64,000 nucleotides of DNA. Origin: a phage. The position numbers and the translations under genes are program-made. Positions 42,333 to 49,211 of this stretch are shown piece after piece. The stretch is taken from the sequence record PZ445430.1; one strand, 5' to 3'. How positions within the stretch are numbered: position 1 is the first letter of the stretch; each line of letters begins with the position of its first letter. The notes under the pieces were generated by a model, which was not told the origin of the DNA, did no database searches, and saw nothing but the letters and a program-made list of their open reading frames with translations.

Positions 42333-42565
42333 TATTGTTCCTTGAGCAAAGAAGCAAGTTCAGCATAGACTTTATCTAGCTCAAAGCCAATGCGAAGGGA
42401 CACACGAGTCTTCCGTTGTTTAAGTAACCATATGGAGACATTAGGGATGCCAGCGAGACGTGGTGGTACCACTCTACATAGTTTCTCCGCAGTATCGTAA
42501 ACAGAAGTTTTACGTTCTTTTACGGGAAACTTCCTTGTTTCCCACTTTTTATTCTTCACTGTCAT
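42332..42565 (-). CDS. hypothetical small protein
   Basis: ORF overlapping 3' end of D2-like gene; start moved to internal ATG (MTVKNKK) preceded by G-rich RBS. Confidence 0.4.
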   Translation of the reverse strand: MTVKNKKWETRKFPVKERKTSVYDTAEKLCRVVPPRLAGIPNVSIWLLKQRKTRVSLRIGFELDKVYAELASLLKEQ

Positions 42566-45338
42566 TTCTAGCCCCCAATTCAGCAAGAGCTTCCTCATGC
42601 ATCTGACGTTCTTCATCTGTCATAAACTTAACTGGAATCGGCATACATTCGATCTTACAGTAAGTTCTGTACCAGTCCACAATCTTTTCCGTATCCAGAT
42701 CTTTACCAATACCCATCATGCCAAGATACATACGAGCATATTTTGGGTTAGCACTCTGACCTGTCTTAAGGAAGAAATCCTTCTTCTTATTCTTAAGAGC
42801 TTCAATAAAAGGTTTGATTGTTACGTTTGAACACTTCTTAATATCCTCCCAGAACATATCGTGCATCTTATGGAAGAATGCAGCTCTATCGTTTGGTTTA
42901 TCCTTGATATATTGTTCAACGTGTTCCACTGTTACATCTTTAATAGAATCCAGATGATAATAGCGAACCAGAAGTAACTTGGCTTCATATGCATCTGCAT
43001 GACGTGGTGCGCAGTATTCAGGAGTTGAGTGCAAAATAGCTTTGATTCGCTCTTCTGTATACTCTTTGCCTGCACCTTCGATAGTTCCCCAGCTTTCACT
43101 GAAAATATCAATAGTTGCACCTTGATCGAGAAGATAATACCGCAAAGTACTGGTATAGTTTCTAGATTCCAGCTCACGACGACGTGCGTACAGTTGTTGG
43201 GCTAACTCAATCCAACCTTCGTCAATATTATATTGCTCGGAACCCGCAGAAAATCCACTCGTAGATTTATCAATAAAATAATAAATGTTCTGAGCACCAC
43301 GGTCGCGCCTGATTGCTTGAAAACGCATGTTTGGCGCTTGGTTTGAGGTTCTAGTAATTACGAATACATTATCAAAATAGTTAAAGTCAACACCACTCGT
43401 TACAGATGGACTACATAATAAACAATCAATCTGTTGATCAATTAGCTCATTAGTTGTATAATCCAGAATACGTCGGATATCTACATCAGACGTAGAGTTT
43501 GAGTGAATTTCTTTAACTAACGCACCAGTATTACGACGTAACGCCATTCCCTTTTCATTCAGTTCATCTGGTCCACAGTCAGATACTAGGATTGACTTCT
43601 CACCCATCTCTAGAGATGTTTGAAGTGCAACCCAAATACTGGATTCATCAGGGAATTCATAAGCATGAGCTTTCGCCAGCATTTTACGGTGGTGATTATA
43701 AAATGCGACTGGTTTATCAAAATCAATCAAAGAACCATAGGCTTCAATCGTTTCTGCACTGATATCCCCATCAGATAAGATCACCGTTTTTGCAGTAATA
43801 AGAATATCACGAAGAACCTGAATACATTCACGACGGTTTTTAACAACCGGAGCGAATAACAGATCATTCATTACTGCGTCACATTCATCAATAAAGATCG
43901 TATCAATCTGACCCACAAAGCTCTTGAACTTATGTATAGAGTGAATAGTTGAAGACATACGATCAATAGCACCACGTTTGAAGTTCAGCATATCAACTGA
44001 CTTATCATACTGGCCAGCACCGAATTTCTTCGCATTAGAAGATACAAGTGCCCTAGTATTTGTGATTGCAATAAAGTTTCCTGGAAGAACACCTGCATCT
44101 AGCCACTTAGTTACTGCGGTAGTTTTACCCGTACCAAGACTTGCCTTAACAAATGTTAAATGTCCTTTTGGTGGTACAATGTTAATTTTCAGGTATGGAA
44201 CTTCTGGTGGAGAATCTGTGTCTAGACGTTTTAATGGTACACCTTTTAAGTTTGGTGGAATCTCACGTTTGGAGTTATTTACAAAGGCTTTGAGAGCCTG
44301 CTTACGACCGTTATTAAAGTAATCTTGAATATTACGACTATTATCTTTAGTCGCAATATACTCAGATAAAGCTGGTTTAATCTCACGTTCTAACCACGTA
44401 AAGTCAACACCATCTTCTAACGCTCTGTGATAAAGTTTTGGGATAATACGCAGGTACACTCCATCCTCAGCTTCTTCTAGTTCGCTGATGGTTTCTTCCA
44501 CTTTATCAGATGCAGCCTTCTTGCCTTTAATTTGGTCAAGTAAGGAGTAGAATTCTTCTTTAAACTCACCTCTAGTTGTTTCAAAGTCAACTAGGTTATT
44601 GGGTAGATTCACTTTCGAACCCTTAACATACACAAGACGTGGTTTATTCTCCGCTTTAAACGGATCGACTATACCATCATCAAATAAGGGGTCTGCAAAA
44701 TAGTGAAGCTGAACAGAAGAATAATAAGCTAAGTCAGCAATATCAAAACCATACTTTTGCTTACTACTGTCATTGATAGATGTAAATAAGAACTTTAACT
44801 GACCTTGCGTTACCTTGACATTAGATTCTAGCATTAAGTGCATTCGGATACCTGGTTTTAGGCCAGCCGAAGACGATGCATGAGCAATAAACCCTGCATC
44901 AAGAGGAAACATATCCTCACTAATACTATTCAACATCTTAATAATATGACGTGCCATGCCAACAAGATTAAACTTGTCATAGCCACCAGTATCTACAATA
45001 CCATCCACGTCCATAGCGATAATATGACTAGGATTGGATACGTTAAAGTTTCCTCTGGTACGACGCACATTATCTTTTGGAGCTAAACATTTACCACGAA
45101 TAGCTACAATATGCGGGTCTTTGGTAAGACGACGCATGATAGGTAACATTTCAGCAAGGTTTTGCGGGTCAAGTTCTTCAAGTACATCAAATTTGAAGGG
45201 CATGGAAGCTGGTTTACCTTCTGGATGCTCTTTAGAGAATCGCTTTGCAAAGGTGTAGTCTTCCACTTTGATCTCTTTCCAGATGCCAGTGGCTTTATCT
45301 CTGGAAAATCCTGCGTGACCTTGTAGGATTGAGAACAC
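42549..45338 (-). CDS. D2-like large P-loop NTPase / helicase, possibly with N-terminal primase-like domain
   Basis: Walker A ASLGTGKTT; possible primase-like acidic motif MDVDGI; start moved from track ATG 45461 to in-frame GTG about 45338 preceded by AGGAG. Confidence 0.55.
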   Translation of the reverse strand: MFSILQGHAGFSRDKATGIWKEIKVEDYTFAKRFSKEHPEGKPASMPFKFDVLEELDPQNLAEMLPIMRRLTKDPHIVAIRGKCLAPKDNVRRTRGNFNVSNPSHIIAMDVDGIVDTGGYDKFNLVGMARHIIKMLNSISEDMFPLDAGFIAHASSSAGLKPGIRMHLMLESNVKVTQGQLKFLFTSINDSSKQKYGFDIADLAYYSSVQLHYFADPLFDDGIVDPFKAENKPRLVYVKGSKVNLPNNLVDFETTRGEFKEEFYSLLDQIKGKKAASDKVEETISELEEAEDGVYLRIIPKLYHRALEDGVDFTWLEREIKPALSEYIATKDNSRNIQDYFNNGRKQALKAFVNNSKREIPPNLKGVPLKRLDTDSPPEVPYLKINIVPPKGHLTFVKASLGTGKTTAVTKWLDAGVLPGNFIAITNTRALVSSNAKKFGAGQYDKSVDMLNFKRGAIDRMSSTIHSIHKFKSFVGQIDTIFIDECDAVMNDLLFAPVVKNRRECIQVLRDILITAKTVILSDGDISAETIEAYGSLIDFDKPVAFYNHHRKMLAKAHAYEFPDESSIWVALQTSLEMGEKSILVSDCGPDELNEKGMALRRNTGALVKEIHSNSTSDVDIRRILDYTTNELIDQQIDCLLCSPSVTSGVDFNYFDNVFVITRTSNQAPNMRFQAIRRDRGAQNIYYFIDKSTSGFSAGSEQYNIDEGWIELAQQLYARRRELESRNYTSTLRYYLLDQGATIDIFSESWGTIEGAGKEYTEERIKAILHSTPEYCAPRHADAYEAKLLLVRYYHLDSIKDVTVEHVEQYIKDKPNDRAAFFHKMHDMFWEDIKKCSNVTIKPFIEALKNKKKDFFLKTGQSANPKYARMYLGMMGIGKDLDTEKIVDWYRTYCKIECMPIPVKFMTDEERQMHEEALAELGARNDSEE

Positions 45339-45829
45339 AACAATACTCCTATGTTGGTTATTCGGATATCTTTCTTTAGGACTATTCAAAAGAATAGAAC
45401 AACTATTACTACCATTTACACAAACATTAATCATCATCAAGCAGTATGAATAAGTTATCATACCTCAGTGCTGCGCTCTCTTAACTCTTATCCAGATCAG
45501 AATCTAGGTCATTGGCCGCTAAGCCGATTCTGATTGCCCTCACTATCCTATTGGTAGGTGGCTACTGGACGTGTCACCATTCGCTGCTCTTTTCGTTCGC
45601 ACCCCCATATAAAGCTCTGCCTATATAACGAGCTAAATATGCACGGTTTGGATTTACCTTTCCGAATTCAGGGTACGCAGATCACTTAATTGATAATTAA
45701 CTAACGCAGTATAAACACTAGTAATAGTTAAAACAACCCTTAATGGGGCAGCCTAACTGTTCCGTATTGCGGATTGTAAACAAGAAAAATTAGCAAAATC
45801 AATTTTTACTAATGTCTCTCAATTCAATA

Positions 45830-45870
45830 TAAATATTATATCAAGATTTTGAGCATCCTGCAAGTAAAAT
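45830..45870 (-). promoter_or_regulatory. promoter upstream of long leader of D2-like gene
   Basis: on - strand TTGCAG, 17-nt spacer, TATAAT. Confidence 0.5.
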
Positions 45871-45902
45871 TTTTCCGAAGGTGCTATCAGTGTCCTTGAG
45901 CA

Positions 45903-45931
45903 CAGAGAAAACCGAGTCATTTTGACTCGGT
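45903..45931 (-). terminator. intrinsic terminator after paralog gene
   Basis: CCGAGTC-AAAAT-GACTCGG hairpin followed by TTTTCTCT on - strand. Confidence 0.7.
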
Positions 45932-45954
45932 AATCAGGATTGAGCTAATGAAAA

Positions 45955-46350
45955 TCAATCATCATTTAGGCCTGGGACATAGATTCCAATGCGATTTAAT
46001 TGACCTTTAGCTTCTTCGAGAATATCTTCGGTGTACTCCCAAATATCATCTTCTACTTGCAAAAGATAAGGGGATTCACCAGTTTCGGGGTCACGTGTAA
46101 TGGCTAAGCCACGTGGATGGAATATAGAGAAGTTGAGGGCAACAATCAAGCCCATGCTGGACAATTCATTCCAGTCAGCTTCCCAACCATCATCTTCATC
46201 TTCGTCCACAAAGACACCTACACTAGGGTCTGTTACAGAAGTAAACGGAAATGTTACACTAACCTTGTCAACCCCCAACCAACGTGCAAGGAGCCCTTCA
46301 GCACGCTCTACCAAATTAGGATCTATCTGACGCCAAAATACTTGTTCCAT
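45955..46350 (-). CDS. hypothetical protein, paralog A of tandem pair
   Basis: 131 aa; clear similarity to adjacent 142-aa ORF (GLIVALNFSIFHPRGLAI / GLVFALNHKLFMPANHRL; C-terminal GIYVPGL / GYMIPGL). Confidence 0.6.
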   Translation of the reverse strand: MEQVFWRQIDPNLVERAEGLLARWLGVDKVSVTFPFTSVTDPSVGVFVDEDEDDGWEADWNELSSMGLIVALNFSIFHPRGLAITRDPETGESPYLLQVEDDIWEYTEDILEEAKGQLNRIGIYVPGLNDD

Positions 46351-46359
46351 TCTGCCTCC

Positions 46360-46788
46360 TTAAGCAGTTAAACCTGGGATCATATACCCGAAACGACGAA
46401 GTTTCTGAATCCCCTCATTTACTTCTTCGGGCGAATATGACCAGCCCTCACGTTCATTTACCTGGAAAGCAGGAGCTTCACCAGTGCGATAGTTTACAAT
46501 AAGACGGTGATTTGCAGGCATAAACAGCTTATGGTTCAAGGCAAAAACCAGACCCATTTCATCTAGTTCTTTCCAGTCTACAATTTCTTCTACTCTCTCA
46601 CCTAAATCCACGCTAACTCCAATACATGGAGCTTCCTCTAGTGGGCCTTTAAAGGATAGGAAGATATCGTTATTATCACACCAAATCTTAAGCAGATTGA
46701 TGGTTTCATTATACATACCATTAGGGAGAGAACGCCAGAAGTTGAGGAGCATAGGGTTTACCTCTTTCATGAAAAGATTATCGAACAT
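46360..46788 (-). CDS. hypothetical protein, paralog B of tandem pair
   Basis: 142 aa; paralogous to 45955-46350. Confidence 0.6.
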   Translation of the reverse strand: MFDNLFMKEVNPMLLNFWRSLPNGMYNETINLLKIWCDNNDIFLSFKGPLEEAPCIGVSVDLGERVEEIVDWKELDEMGLVFALNHKLFMPANHRLIVNYRTGEAPAFQVNEREGWSYSPEEVNEGIQKLRRFGYMIPGLTA

Positions 46789-46790
46789 AT

Positions 46791-47330
46791 TTACACCTTA
46801 AGTTTCTGAAGAGCCTTACACATTTCAAGATCTGGACTAAACTCCAGCATATAGCTGATAGCATTTAAATCTTGAAGGTTTATTCCAGTCCTGCCATTTA
46901 CAATAACAGTAGGGAATTGGTACATCATAGCACCAGCATCATCTAGGACACACCAATGCTTGAGCTTATATTTTTCGACGAAACGTAAAACAGAATTACC
47001 CCGAGATAAACCACCTCCAGTAAAATCTGTTGTACCAAGGAAACGATCGATCAAACCGAGCCCGGTCATAATCTGAACGTTCTCCATCTCATTTCGTACA
47101 GAAAACCATGAAGATACCCCAACAATCATTATTGGGGATGGCTTAAGAAAGTTCTGAAAAGCCTGGAGTAATGGCTTGTAAACCCAATCACCACCAAAGA
47201 ATAGCTTCTCACTATCTGGAGCATGATGGTGAGAGATGCTCGAATTGAGCACCCCATCAATATCCAGGAAAATCACAGGAGTATTACTTATTTCCACCAG
47301 TAGCATCCCACGTCCAGACTTTAACTTCAT
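46791..47330 (-). CDS. HAD-like hydrolase/phosphatase (putative)
   Basis: 179 aa; N-terminal VIFLDIDGVLN matches HAD motif I. Confidence 0.45.
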   Translation of the reverse strand: MKLKSGRGMLLVEISNTPVIFLDIDGVLNSSISHHHAPDSEKLFFGGDWVYKPLLQAFQNFLKPSPIMIVGVSSWFSVRNEMENVQIMTGLGLIDRFLGTTDFTGGGLSRGNSVLRFVEKYKLKHWCVLDDAGAMMYQFPTVIVNGRTGINLQDLNAISYMLEFSPDLEMCKALQKLKV

Positions 47331-47469
47331 CAGTAAAAGGAACTGGAACCTTCAATTCACCTTTACCCCACATAACAGATAGGAACAGAGAATAAATGGT
47401 AATCATACCGATTAGGTTGACAAACCATACTAGACCTTTCCAGATACCCTTAAAAATCTTCTTCACCAT
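47284..47469 (-). CDS. small membrane protein
   Basis: 61-aa ORF (MVKKIFKGIWKGLVWFVNLIGMITIYSLFLSVMW...) with hydrophobic helix; AAGGAGGG RBS before internal ATG of track ORF. Confidence 0.5.
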   Translation of the reverse strand: MVKKIFKGIWKGLVWFVNLIGMITIYSLFLSVMWGKGELKVPVPFTDEVKVWTWDATGGNK

Positions 47470-47632
47470 ATTCTCCCTCCTTAATAAGGAACTCTTTCCA
47501 TTCTGCTGTATCCTCATAGATAACGCAGAAATCATCACTCTTCCATGAGAAGTCATCAGTAGCAAATTCGAAACGGTAGCACCAACTACCATCTGGCCAT
47601 ACTAAAAGATCACACATGCTTTTCTGGGACAT
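47450..47632 (-). CDS. small acidic protein
   Basis: 60-aa ORF (MSQKSMCDLLVWPDGSW...) preceded by GGAGGG; start overlaps 3' end of Sir2-like gene. Confidence 0.4.
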   Translation of the reverse strand: MSQKSMCDLLVWPDGSWCYRFEFATDDFSWKSDDFCVIYEDTAEWKEFLIKEGEYGEEDF

Positions 47633-48461
47633 AAATATTTCCCTCCATAAAAGCTTCAACTTGATCAATAAAGTGTTTATTACCAAAAACTTCGGCAGCT
47701 CCAGCACGCCATACAGTAACACCACGTTTCTCATACTCAAGCTGTTCGTCATAACGAACTTGTGGGTTAACAACCATCATCTTAGTTCCACGACATACAG
47801 CAGGAAATAATTCCCAGTTGAAGTTGATAACTTGGTTACTACAACCCACCACAATAACCATGTCATTGCTAGTAAGAGTATCAAACAGGTTGATTTGACC
47901 CATGTACCACGGAGCTGTCTCACCAAAGAACACCACGTTTGGTTTTACCCATTCGTAATCTTCAGGGGCAATCGCAGTATACCCAACATCTTCGATGATT
48001 TGATTGCGACCCTGATGATAGATCACCTCTTTCAAGTACCCGTGAGCGTGAATGATTTCATCACGAGGGATACCAGCACGTTCCAGAAGGTCATCAACGT
48101 TAGTAGTGAAGTTCTTCACGCTACCCGCATCATAACGCTGGAACCATTCTGCAATTCGCAGATGGGCAATGTTAGGCTCAACAGTCTGTAGTTCCTGACG
48201 ACGCATGTTGTAGAACTCATGAGTCTTGAGATACAGATCGTTACCATCTTCATCAATGCCAGGGAAACGAGCGCTGAAGTAGTTAGGATCATCTTCACCA
48301 CAGAAGCGACGGAAGCCAGCTTCAAAGTTAGGCAAGCTACATACTTCCTCTAGATCGTACTCATCCCACAAAGATTTTCCACTAGCAGTATCAGTACGGA
48401 AAGCACGAACACCACTATCTACACTCAAACCTGCACCACTAACAACAATTAGTCTACGCAT
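47610..48461 (-). CDS. Sir2-like NAD-dependent protein (sirtuin fold, no obvious Zn ribbon)
   Basis: 283 aa; GAGLSVDSGVRAFR, TTNVDDL, HAHG, VVGCSNQV match sirtuin motifs; no CxxC pairs seen. Confidence 0.7.
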   Translation of the reverse strand: MRRLIVVSGAGLSVDSGVRAFRTDTASGKSLWDEYDLEEVCSLPNFEAGFRRFCGEDDPNYFSARFPGIDEDGNDLYLKTHEFYNMRRQELQTVEPNIAHLRIAEWFQRYDAGSVKNFTTNVDDLLERAGIPRDEIIHAHGYLKEVIYHQGRNQIIEDVGYTAIAPEDYEWVKPNVVFFGETAPWYMGQINLFDTLTSNDMVIVVGCSNQVINFNWELFPAVCRGTKMMVVNPQVRYDEQLEYEKRGVTVWRAGAAEVFGNKHFIDQVEAFMEGNIYVPEKHV

Positions 48462-49180: not shown

Positions 49181-49211
49181 ATAAAAGCCAGGTCGACTAG
49201 CAACCTGGCTG
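49175..49211 (-). terminator. intrinsic terminator after nrdD
   Basis: AGCCAGGT...ACCTGGCT hairpin followed by TTTTATTTTA on - strand. Confidence 0.7.

What the first reader, a model, noticed from the sequence alone, without database searches (positions are those of the whole stretch)
45955..46788. Tandem duplicated genes (131 aa and 142 aa paralogs)
The two adjacent ORFs share blocks (MGLIVALNFSIFHPRGLAI vs MGLVFALNHKLFMPANHRL; PETGESPYLLQVEDD vs RTGEAPAFQVNERE; GIYVPGL vs GYMIPGL) but have diverged substantially, indicating an old duplication kept under selection. Duplicated small accessory genes in phages are often diversifying host-interaction factors.
Basis: seen in the sequence. Interest (0 to 1): 0.45.

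Follow-up and report, generated by a model that had tools for sequence, protein, structure and literature searches.

The report
Ancient tandem DUF7415 gene pair, T5-like phage
Two adjacent small acidic genes in this T5-like phage are real, very old duplicates of a phage protein family of unknown function (DUF7415); both are conserved rather than fast-evolving, and their function is still unknown.

Summary
The window is Escherichia phage SuperGirl (100% identity). ORFs 45955-46350(-) (131 aa, "A") and 46360-46788(-) (142 aa, "B") are significant paralogs: BLASTP E=1e-20, 31% identity over 124 aa with no gaps, z=29 against shuffles. They are the orthologs of T5.107 and T5.106. Both belong to Pfam DUF7415 and phrog_2502.

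The pair occurs in essentially all ~520 T5-like genomes searched. The duplication predates the split from the Klebsiella T5-likes, and DNA similarity between the copies is gone.

New detail:
- A keeps the family's near-invariant motif (GL..N....HPxG....GxSP). B belongs to a monophyletic clade (91% bootstrap) that lost it and is instead constrained in its N-domain and C-terminal tail.
- Both have the same confident AF2 fold, with no counterpart in the PDB.
- Single-domain relatives sit right after the replication initiator gpA in P2-like phages. They are also wedged between nrdD/nrdG or nrdA/nrdB, or fused to MazG-like, Tmk or ASCH domains.
- A published knockdown screen scored T5.107 "Fit" and T5.106 "Not Fit".

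Most likely role (inferred): acidic accessory proteins of the replication/dNTP-supply module. The pair is ordinary as a duplication, but the family is modestly interesting.

The parts
45955..46350 (-). Paralog A, 131 aa, ortholog of T5.107. Canonical 'His-type' DUF7415 two-domain protein, very acidic (pI 4.05, net charge -20).
   Evidence: ORF. Pfam DUF7415 96.7 bits. phrog_2502. T5 ortholog. AF2 pLDDT 90.4, pTM 0.83. Scores 83 bits with an HMM built only from single-domain relatives. Charge.
46198..46344 (-). A, N-terminal half (residues 3-51). Matched by the Pfam DUF7415 model; predicted strand-helix-strand-strand.
   Evidence: Homology to the C-half was not independently confirmed.
46054..46176 (-). 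A, C-type DUF7415 core (residues 59-99). Carries the family motif W60..G67-L68..N73..H78-P79-x-G81..G90-x-S92-P93.
46351..46359 (-). 9-nt spacer between the B stop and the A start, holding a GGAGG ribosome-binding site.
   Evidence: TAA GGAGGCAGA ATG.
46360..46788 (-). Paralog B, 142 aa, ortholog of T5.106. Divergent 'His-less' DUF7415 two-domain protein (FMPAN instead of FHPRG), pI 4.74.
   Evidence: ORF. Pfam 124.2 bits. phrog_2502. AF2 pLDDT 86.9, pTM 0.81. Only 32 bits with the single-domain HMM. Member of the B-type clade, 91% bootstrap.
46600..46746 (-). B, N-terminal half (residues 15-63), matched by the Pfam DUF7415 model at 71.7 bits.
46453..46584 (-). B, C-type DUF7415 core (residues 69-112) with a degenerated motif.
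45911..45931 (-). Terminator-like hairpin plus T-run, 24 nt after the stop of A; end of the operon.
   Evidence: T5 has an annotated terminator at the same place after T5.107, as does Slocum.
46791..47330 (-). Upstream neighbour in the same operon: HAD-family phosphatase-like protein (HAD_SAK_2), ortholog of T5.105. Its stop lies 2 nt before the start of B.
47610..48461 (-). Sir2-like protein (T5.102 ortholog), same operon; context only.
49186..49210 (-). Terminator-like hairpin downstream of nrdD. Marks the upstream boundary of the transcription unit that ends with B and A.
   Evidence: T5 annotation has a terminator and promoter between nrdD and T5.100.

Best explanation
SHOWN. The two ORFs are ancient tandem paralogs, the orthologs of T5.106 and T5.107. 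They are the last two genes of an early operon that runs nrdD | small ORFs - Sir2 - HAD - B - A | terminator and is followed by the replication-origin-binding/primase gene. Each is a roughly 130-aa acidic alpha/beta protein. It consists of an N-terminal half specific to this two-domain subfamily, the widespread roughly 55-aa DUF7415 core, and a C-terminal helix with a ...PGL tail.

The duplication happened inside Demerecviridae, before the Markadamsvirinae and the Klebsiella T5-likes diverged. Both copies have been kept under purifying selection ever since. They have diverged asymmetrically. A retains the family's near-invariant motif (GL..N....HPxG....GxSP) and looks like the single-copy and single-domain relatives. 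B belongs to a derived clade in which that motif has decayed, while the N-half and the C-terminal tail became more constrained.

INFERRED (mechanism, about 0.3). DUF7415 is a non-DNA-binding, protein-binding accessory module of the phage DNA-replication/dNTP-supply machinery. Its conserved helix-turn-hairpin motif would dock onto a partner common to enterobacterial hosts or to ribonucleotide-reductase/replication enzymes. In T5-like phages the canonical copy A would carry that activity. B would be a specialised partner, acting as a hetero-oligomer with A or as an adaptor to a second target, and not a redundant spare.
For: Paralogy.

Identity and operon.

Universality: two places per record in about 520 T5-like records. 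The pair is kept in DT57C even though HAD and most of Sir2 are deleted there.

Age:
- The same A and B types occur in Klebsiella T5-likes.
- DNA similarity is erased.
- Single-copy His-type genes occupy the same slot in Serratia phage Slocum and Pectobacterium phage DU_PP_V.

Purifying selection: dN/dS 0.04-0.26.

Asymmetry:
- The B-type clade has 91% bootstrap support.
- Mean pairwise identity in the motif region is 0.49 in His-type proteins against 0.17 in B-type. The N-half is 0.20 against 0.33, and the tail 0.28 against 0.40.
- An HMM built from single-domain relatives gives A 83 bits and B 32 bits.
- A single-domain query finds only one place per T5-like genome.

Fold: confident, and without a PDB counterpart.

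Link to replication and dNTP supply:
- In 80 IMG/VR loci the upstream neighbour is the replication initiator Phage_GPA in 29 of 56 distinct cases, as it is in E. coli phage 9W and Vibrio phage yong1.
- A 72-aa homolog overlaps both nrdD and nrdG in Klebsiella phage JD18, and about 139 near-identical records carry it.
- A homolog lies between nrdA-like and nrdB-like genes in L022.
- In Slopekvirus it lies two genes downstream of a NUDIX gene.
- Fusions exist to dATP/dGTP pyrophosphohydrolase, thymidylate kinase and ASCH/DUF3850.

Fitness: T5.107 is one of 17 'Fit' genes in the T5 CRISPRi-ART screen, most of the others being early or replication genes; T5.106 was 'Not Fit' (PMC11879866 supplement).

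Charge: the family is acidic, which argues against direct DNA binding.
Against: - No experiment or homology assigns any biochemical activity.
- Gene neighbourhood and rare fusions (1-2 clusters each, except ASCH) are circumstantial.
- The contexts are heterogeneous (gpA, nrdDG, nrdAB, NUDIX, plain runs of small ORFs), so no single partner is implied.
- The T5.107 fitness call is marginal (p=0.02). The same screen scored the origin-binding protein 'Not Fit', so its sensitivity is low and the A/B difference (p 0.02 vs 0.17) may not be real.
- A-B interaction was not tested, because no multimer prediction was available.
- An invariant His/Asn/Ser could equally indicate catalysis.
- Strong acidity is also typical of DNA-mimic anti-restriction proteins.
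Confidence: 0.45

Rival explanations
1. The two proteins are anti-defence factors (for example DNA mimics or inhibitors of a host immunity or nucleotide-depletion system), and the duplication let the phage cover two targets.
For: Small and very acidic: A has pI 4.05 and net charge -20, and the family is generally acidic. They are early-expressed genes next to Sir2 and HAD genes. In P2-like phages the homolog sits near the accessory region downstream of gene A. The fold has no known relatives, as is common for anti-defence proteins.
Against: - The genes are present in essentially every T5-like genome at fixed copy number, with strong purifying selection and no hypervariability.
- Homologs are translationally wedged between RNR subunit genes.
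- Fusions are to nucleotide-metabolism enzymes.
- T5.107 matters for fitness on a laboratory E. coli strain.
- There is no fold match to Ocr, ArdA or other mimics.
Confidence: 0.2
2. DUF7415 is a tiny enzyme or small-molecule/metal-binding domain. Its invariant Asn, His and Ser (N73, H78, S92 in A) would form the site and act on a nucleotide-related substrate. A is the active copy and B a pseudo-enzyme partner.
For: N, H, P, G and S are near-invariant across more than 130 clusters that are otherwise under 40% identical. B-type proteins have lost exactly these residues. The domain is fused or adjacent to nucleotide enzymes.
Against: A 55-residue helix-hairpin unit is small for a catalytic domain. 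Several of the invariant residues (G, P, HPxG at a helix end, GxSP in a hairpin turn) look structural. No similarity to any enzyme fold or family was found.
Confidence: 0.15
3. The two genes are functionally redundant copies kept for dosage, or B is a decaying copy on its way to loss.
For: Same family, same operon, adjacent. T5.106 was 'Not Fit' in the knockdown screen.
Against: - The two share only 31% identity.
- B is at least as constrained as A: dN/dS 0.04-0.17.
- B is retained in about 520 genomes and in the Klebsiella lineage.
- The pattern of constraint along the protein has shifted rather than relaxed overall.
Confidence: 0.05

Closest known systems
T5.106 / T5.107 of bacteriophage T5 (AAS77152 / AAS77153), phrog_2502
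   Same: Direct orthologs: 71% (B) and about 70% (A) identity, same order, same operon position between T5.105 (HAD) and the terminator before the origin-binding protein gene.
   Different: Nothing of substance. Both are annotated 'conserved hypothetical'. The only functional datum is that T5.107 was 'Fit' and T5.106 'Not Fit' in CRISPRi-ART.
Pfam PF24187 DUF7415 single-domain phage proteins (phrog_3954), e.g. Klebsiella phage JD18 gp054 between nrdD and nrdG
   Same: They share the C-type core and its motif (IDWNxLSxxGLIxRINxEILHPLGLA..RDPxTGxSxG). Paralog A aligns at 35-40% identity.
   Different: They are 60-100 aa with one domain only, lacking the N-terminal half and the ...PGL tail. Their genomic slot differs (RNR genes in T4-like phages).
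P2 Orf91-like proteins (phrog_1812), often ASCH/DUF3850-DUF7415 fusions, downstream of replication gene A
   Same: C-terminal DUF7415 core; placed next to the replication initiator, as the T5 pair is placed just upstream of the origin-binding protein gene.
   Different: The N-terminal part is different (a PUA-like ASCH domain in 11 of 54). Single copy, in temperate P2-like phages. Function equally unknown.
Single-copy two-domain DUF7415 proteins of other Demerecviridae (Serratia phage Slocum gp143, Pectobacterium phage DU_PP_V gp086)
   Same: Same two-domain architecture, same genomic slot (after Sir2, before the terminator and the origin-binding protein gene), His-type motif retained.
   Different: One gene instead of two. 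Whether this is the pre-duplication state or a secondary loss of the B-type copy is not resolved by the NJ tree.

Membership tests
Pfam DUF7415 (PF24187) | Score above the curated gathering threshold (27 bits) | tested here: met
   A 96.7 bits, B 124.2 bits, each with two matched stretches.
Pfam DUF7415 (PF24187) | Near-invariant core motif G-L..N....H-P-x-G....G-x-S seen in 90% or more of 136 cluster representatives | tested here: met
   This row is for paralog A only: G67 L68 N73 H78 P79 G81 G90 S92 are all present. Paralog B is scored in the next row.
Pfam DUF7415 (PF24187), canonical His-type subgroup | Same motif in paralog B | tested here: not met
   B has FMPAN in place of FHPRG (His and Gly lost) and GEAP in place of GESP. 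The whole B-type clade lacks the motif. B remains a family member by overall score, but not of the canonical subgroup.
PHROG phrog_2502 | Full-length match to the 134-position profile | tested here: met
   A E=3.1e-58 (positions 4-134), B E=1.8e-59 (positions 2-134).
Tandem gene duplication (paralogs) | Adjacent, same strand, statistically significant full-length similarity, same fold | tested here: met
Internal domain repeat (2 x DUF7415 within each protein) | N-half and C-half detectably homologous to each other | tested here: inconclusive
   The Pfam model hits each half separately: 43-72 bits for N-halves, 57-58 bits for C-halves. The predicted secondary structure repeats as strand-helix-strand-strand. 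But pairwise comparison of the halves is at chance level (z about 1 or below), hhalign of N against C is not significant, and an HMM of single-domain relatives does not find the N-halves beyond weak in-register fragments.
Diversifying phage host-interaction / accessory genes | Elevated dN/dS, hypervariable regions, or variable copy number among close relatives | tested here: not met
   dN/dS 0.04-0.26. Two copies in about 95% or more of records.
Exonuclease / tail tube protein (names carried by some database records) | Similarity to a nuclease or tube-protein family or fold | tested here: not met
   Only DUF7415 in Pfam, phrog 'unknown function', nothing in NCBIfam, no fold match. The names appear and are unsupported.
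DNA-mimic anti-restriction proteins (Ocr/ArdA-like) | Highly acidic surface plus a fold or charge pattern mimicking B-DNA, and binding to restriction/defence enzymes | tested here: inconclusive
   Acidity is met: pI 4.05, net charge -20 for A. No fold similarity to known mimics. Binding is not testable with these tools.
Leucine-rich-repeat proteins | Solenoid of LRR units | tested here: not met
   phmmer gave a short match of B residues 2-49 to LRRTM/VLR cap regions, E=2.4e-5. But the AF2 model is a compact alpha/beta domain with no solenoid, and Pfam finds no LRR.

The most novel reading that the evidence does not exclude
DUF7415 is a previously unrecognised, structurally novel phage module. 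It would bind and modulate ribonucleotide reductase or another dNTP-supply/replication-initiation factor shared by enterobacterial hosts and phages. In T5-like phages it would work as an obligate A-B heteromer, made of a canonical subunit and a motif-less adaptor subunit, that is needed for efficient phage DNA synthesis.
Probability: 0.15. Interest if true: 0.6.

Novelty: already known. Interest (0 to 1): 0.3.

Why it matters
As a duplication it is ordinary. The genes are already in GenBank as T5.106/T5.107 orthologs, both are filed in Pfam DUF7415 and in phrog_2502, and the window is identical to a sequenced phage.

What has some value is the family behind it.
- It is a widespread, acidic phage module with a confident predicted fold and no solved-structure counterpart.
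- It sits repeatedly beside replication initiators and ribonucleotide-reductase genes.
- One T5 member scored as fitness-relevant in a genome-wide knockdown screen.

The T5 pair offers a natural contrast for dissecting what the domain does: one copy keeps the motif and one has lost it, and both are conserved.

Tried and rejected
- Literature search for 'DUF7415' and for the T5 locus tags in main texts found nothing. The P2 'orf91' papers were uninformative. The HIDEN-SEQ preprint has no T5 gene data.
- NCBIfam gave no hits.
- The test for an internal repeat by hhalign and by an independent HMM was not significant.
- I tested whether the HAD neighbour (T5.105) and DUF7415 are linked outside T5-likes. 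HAD homologs in T4-like Proteus, Aeromonas and Providencia phages have no DUF7415 gene within 5 kb, so that linkage is T5-specific and I dropped it as functional evidence.
- The first search for related loci attempt, with a broad alignment, failed for lack of a conserved stretch. It was repeated with a tighter alignment.
- Very large repeat proteins that hit profile positions 84-125 in the representative search (for example P0052, a perfect tandem repeat) were judged spurious and excluded.
- The 'exonuclease' and 'tail tube protein' names in some records were rejected as annotation noise.

Full report
**1. Identity of the window and of the ORFs**

The region 45700-47400 is 100% identical to Escherichia phage SuperGirl (MZ501105) and 98-99.8% identical to many Epseptimavirus genomes (Demerecviridae, T5-like). 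They are orthologs of T5.107 and T5.106 respectively.

On the minus strand the order is:
- terminator-like hairpin 49210-49186, just after nrdD
- small ORFs
- Sir2-like gene 47610-48461
- two small ORFs
- HAD_SAK_2 protein 46791-47330
- B
- 9 nt containing GGAGG
- A
- terminator-like hairpin 45931-45911
- about 450 nt of promoter region
- the 970-aa origin-binding/primase gene 42549-45461

This layout rests. T5's own annotation has a promoter and terminators at the equivalent places.

**2. Is the similarity real?**

Yes.
- BLASTP: 39/124 identical, no gaps, E=1e-20.
- Smith-Waterman: 169 against 28.4 +/- 4.8 for shuffles, z=29.
- Both proteins match Pfam DUF7415 well above threshold and phrog_2502 over their full length.
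- AF2 models are confident: B has pLDDT 86.9 and pTM 0.81; A has pLDDT 90.4 and pTM 0.83. Both have the same element order.
- The B model superposes on a BFVD model of an A ortholog with TM 0.86/0.93.

DNA-level similarity has vanished: 43% in register, 35.5% at third positions. The duplication is therefore old.

**3. Architecture**

The Pfam model matches each half of each protein separately: A residues 3-51 and 59-99, B residues 15-63 and 69-112. The predicted secondary structure is strand-helix-strand-strand twice, followed by a C-terminal helix.

I could not confirm the internal repeat independently.
- Half-against-half comparisons are at chance level.
- hhalign of N-halves against C-halves is not significant.
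- An HMM built only from single-domain relatives does not detect the N-halves beyond short in-register fragments.

I therefore treat "2 x DUF7415 per protein" as probable but resting on the Pfam model.

**4. Distribution and age**

tblastn with B finds 545 phage records and 1063 places, two per T5-like genome. The pair survives in DT57C, where the HAD gene and most of Sir2 are deleted. Klebsiella T5-like phages have the same two adjacent genes at about 33% identity.

Serratia phage Slocum and Pectobacterium phage DU_PP_V have a single two-domain gene in the same slot.

An exhaustive HMM search of 1.84 billion cluster representatives gives 159 clusters at E<1e-3. About 25 are two-domain proteins. 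The rest mostly carry only the C-type core in proteins of 60-200 aa.

An NJ tree with 200 bootstraps puts all motif-less "B-type" proteins in one clade with 91% support. That clade holds B of SuperGirl and T5, the first gene of the Klebsiella pair, and P0059, P0061 and P0116. A-type and single-copy proteins keep the motif. The duplication therefore predates the Markadamsvirinae/Klebsiella-T5-like split. The tree does not resolve whether the single-copy phages are pre-duplication or have lost B.

**5. Selection**

Nei-Gojobori dN/dS was computed over nine T5-like genomes.
- B: 0.04-0.17.
- A: 0.07-0.26. One value of 0.42 occurs at dS=0.09.

These hold at dS up to about 2. Both genes are under purifying selection, and nothing suggests diversification.

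**6. Asymmetric divergence**

Across 136 representatives the residues G-L..N....H-P-x-G....G-x-S are 90% or more conserved. A has them all. B has FMPAN in place of FHPRG.

Mean pairwise identity by region:

| Region | His-type two-domain proteins | B-type clade |
|---|---|---|
| Motif segment | 0.49 (most conserved part) | 0.17 (least conserved part) |
| N-half | 0.20 | 0.33 |
| C-terminal tail | 0.28 | 0.40 |

An HMM of single-domain relatives scores A at 83 bits and B at 32 bits. A single-domain query (JD18 gp054) hits only one place per T5-like genome: 912 places in 911 records. So B is not decaying. Its constraint has moved to other surfaces.

**7. Clues to function**

There is no hit to any characterised family or solved fold.
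- Pfam: only DUF7415.
- NCBIfam: none.
- PDB sequence searches: none credible.
- Foldseek against the PDB: none.
- BFVD: only DUF7415 proteins.

Genomic context of relatives:
- In 80 IMG/VR loci the upstream neighbour is the rolling-circle initiator gpA in 29 of 56 distinct cases. The downstream neighbour is a Dam-type methylase in 12 of 57. The protein itself carries an N-terminal ASCH/DUF3850 domain in 11 of 54. The same gpA-adjacent arrangement is seen in E. coli phage 9W and Vibrio phage yong1.
- In Klebsiella phage JD18 a 72-aa homolog overlaps the end of nrdD and the start of nrdG. About 139 near-identical records exist, and every annotated record sampled shows the same arrangement.
- In IMG/VR contig L022 a homolog lies between nrdA-like and nrdB-like genes.
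- In Slopekvirus/Pseudotevenvirus it lies two genes after a NUDIX gene.
- Rare fusions join it to dATP/dGTP pyrophosphohydrolase (2 clusters), thymidylate kinase (1), Cox, DUF551 and a ClpX-type zinc finger.

The proteins are acidic: A has pI 4.05 and net charge -20, B has pI 4.74, and two-domain relatives have net charges of -6 to -15.

In the CRISPRi-ART transcriptome-wide knockdown of T5, T5.107 is one of only 17 "Fit" genes (score -2.90, p=0.0215). The authors list it as "of entirely unknown function". T5.106 (p=0.167), T5.105, Sir2 and even the origin-binding protein are "Not Fit" (PMC11879866 supplementary files).

**8. Interpretation**

Shown:
- an ancient tandem duplication
- both copies conserved
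- one canonical copy and one motif-less copy
- a fold with no PDB counterpart
- an early replication/nucleotide-metabolism operon

Inferred, at roughly 0.3: DUF7415 is a protein-binding accessory module of the replication/dNTP-supply machinery, with A as the canonical actor and B as a specialised partner. The module recurs in phages with unrelated replication systems (P2, T4-like, T5-like) that share related hosts. A host factor or a universal enzyme such as RNR is therefore a more economical partner than a phage-specific one. This is my inference and was not tested.

Rivals:
- an anti-defence or DNA-mimic role (0.2)
- a small His-dependent enzyme with B as pseudo-enzyme (0.15)
- simple redundancy or decay (0.05)

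**9. Novelty and score**

The genes, the family and their co-membership are already in public databases, and the sequence is identical to a deposited genome, so the finding is already known. The asymmetry between the copies and the replication/RNR neighbourhood pattern are modest additions. Interest is 0.3.

Noticed in passing
window 46791-47330 (-): The gene just upstream of the pair is a HAD_SAK_2 phosphatase-like protein (Pfam E=8e-18), the ortholog of T5.105. Several GenBank records label it 'Sir2 (NAD-dependent deacetylase)', apparently by propagation from phrog_18062; one calls it 'RNA repair protein'. Homologs in T4-like Proteus, Aeromonas and Providencia phages lie between the primase and dCTPase genes.
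   Followed up: partly
L013 3989-4207 (Klebsiella phage JD18); L022 1872-2282 (IMG/VR contig): Single-domain DUF7415 genes are wedged between the two subunit genes of a ribonucleotide reductase, with overlapping ends. In JD18 and about 139 related records the flanking genes are nrdD and nrdG. In L022 they are nrdA-like and nrdB-like.
   Followed up: partly
window 46642-46785 (B residues 2-49): phmmer against PDB sequences gave a short match of the N-terminus of B to LRRTM and to lamprey VLR/repebody cap regions (best E=2.4e-5). The AF2 model shows no LRR solenoid and Pfam finds no LRR. Probably a motif-level coincidence (NP..L..W..N).
   Followed up: partly
window 45462-45954: The roughly 490-bp gap between the operon terminator and the origin-binding/primase gene varies among relatives. 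AKFV33 carries a homing endonuclease there, SESL has an extra 63-aa ORF overlapping the end of A, and SmurfNell has two tiny annotated ORFs.
   Followed up: no
L008 (Escherichia phage DT57C) 1226-1498: DT57C has a truncated ('defective') Sir2 and lacks the HAD gene and the two small ORFs, so the remnant abuts the DUF7415 pair directly. This is a natural deletion showing that those neighbours are dispensable while the pair is retained.
   Followed up: no
database records for orthologs (P0003, P0021, P0022, P0026; PP105779, PP213450): Orthologs of both paralogs carry the names 'exonuclease', 'Phage exonuclease (ACLAME 70)' or 'tail tube protein' in some records. No family or fold evidence supports any of these names.
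   Followed up: yes
P0024, P0025: Partial copies of the B protein are deposited as Enterococcus faecalis proteins on contigs of 677-854 bp. This is most likely T5-like phage contamination of those assemblies.
   Followed up: no
P0052, P0070, P0090 and other hits longer than 450 aa in the representative search: Very long repeat proteins matched profile positions 84-125 many times. P0052 is a perfect 53-aa tandem repeat. Judged spurious repeat-driven hits.
   Followed up: partly
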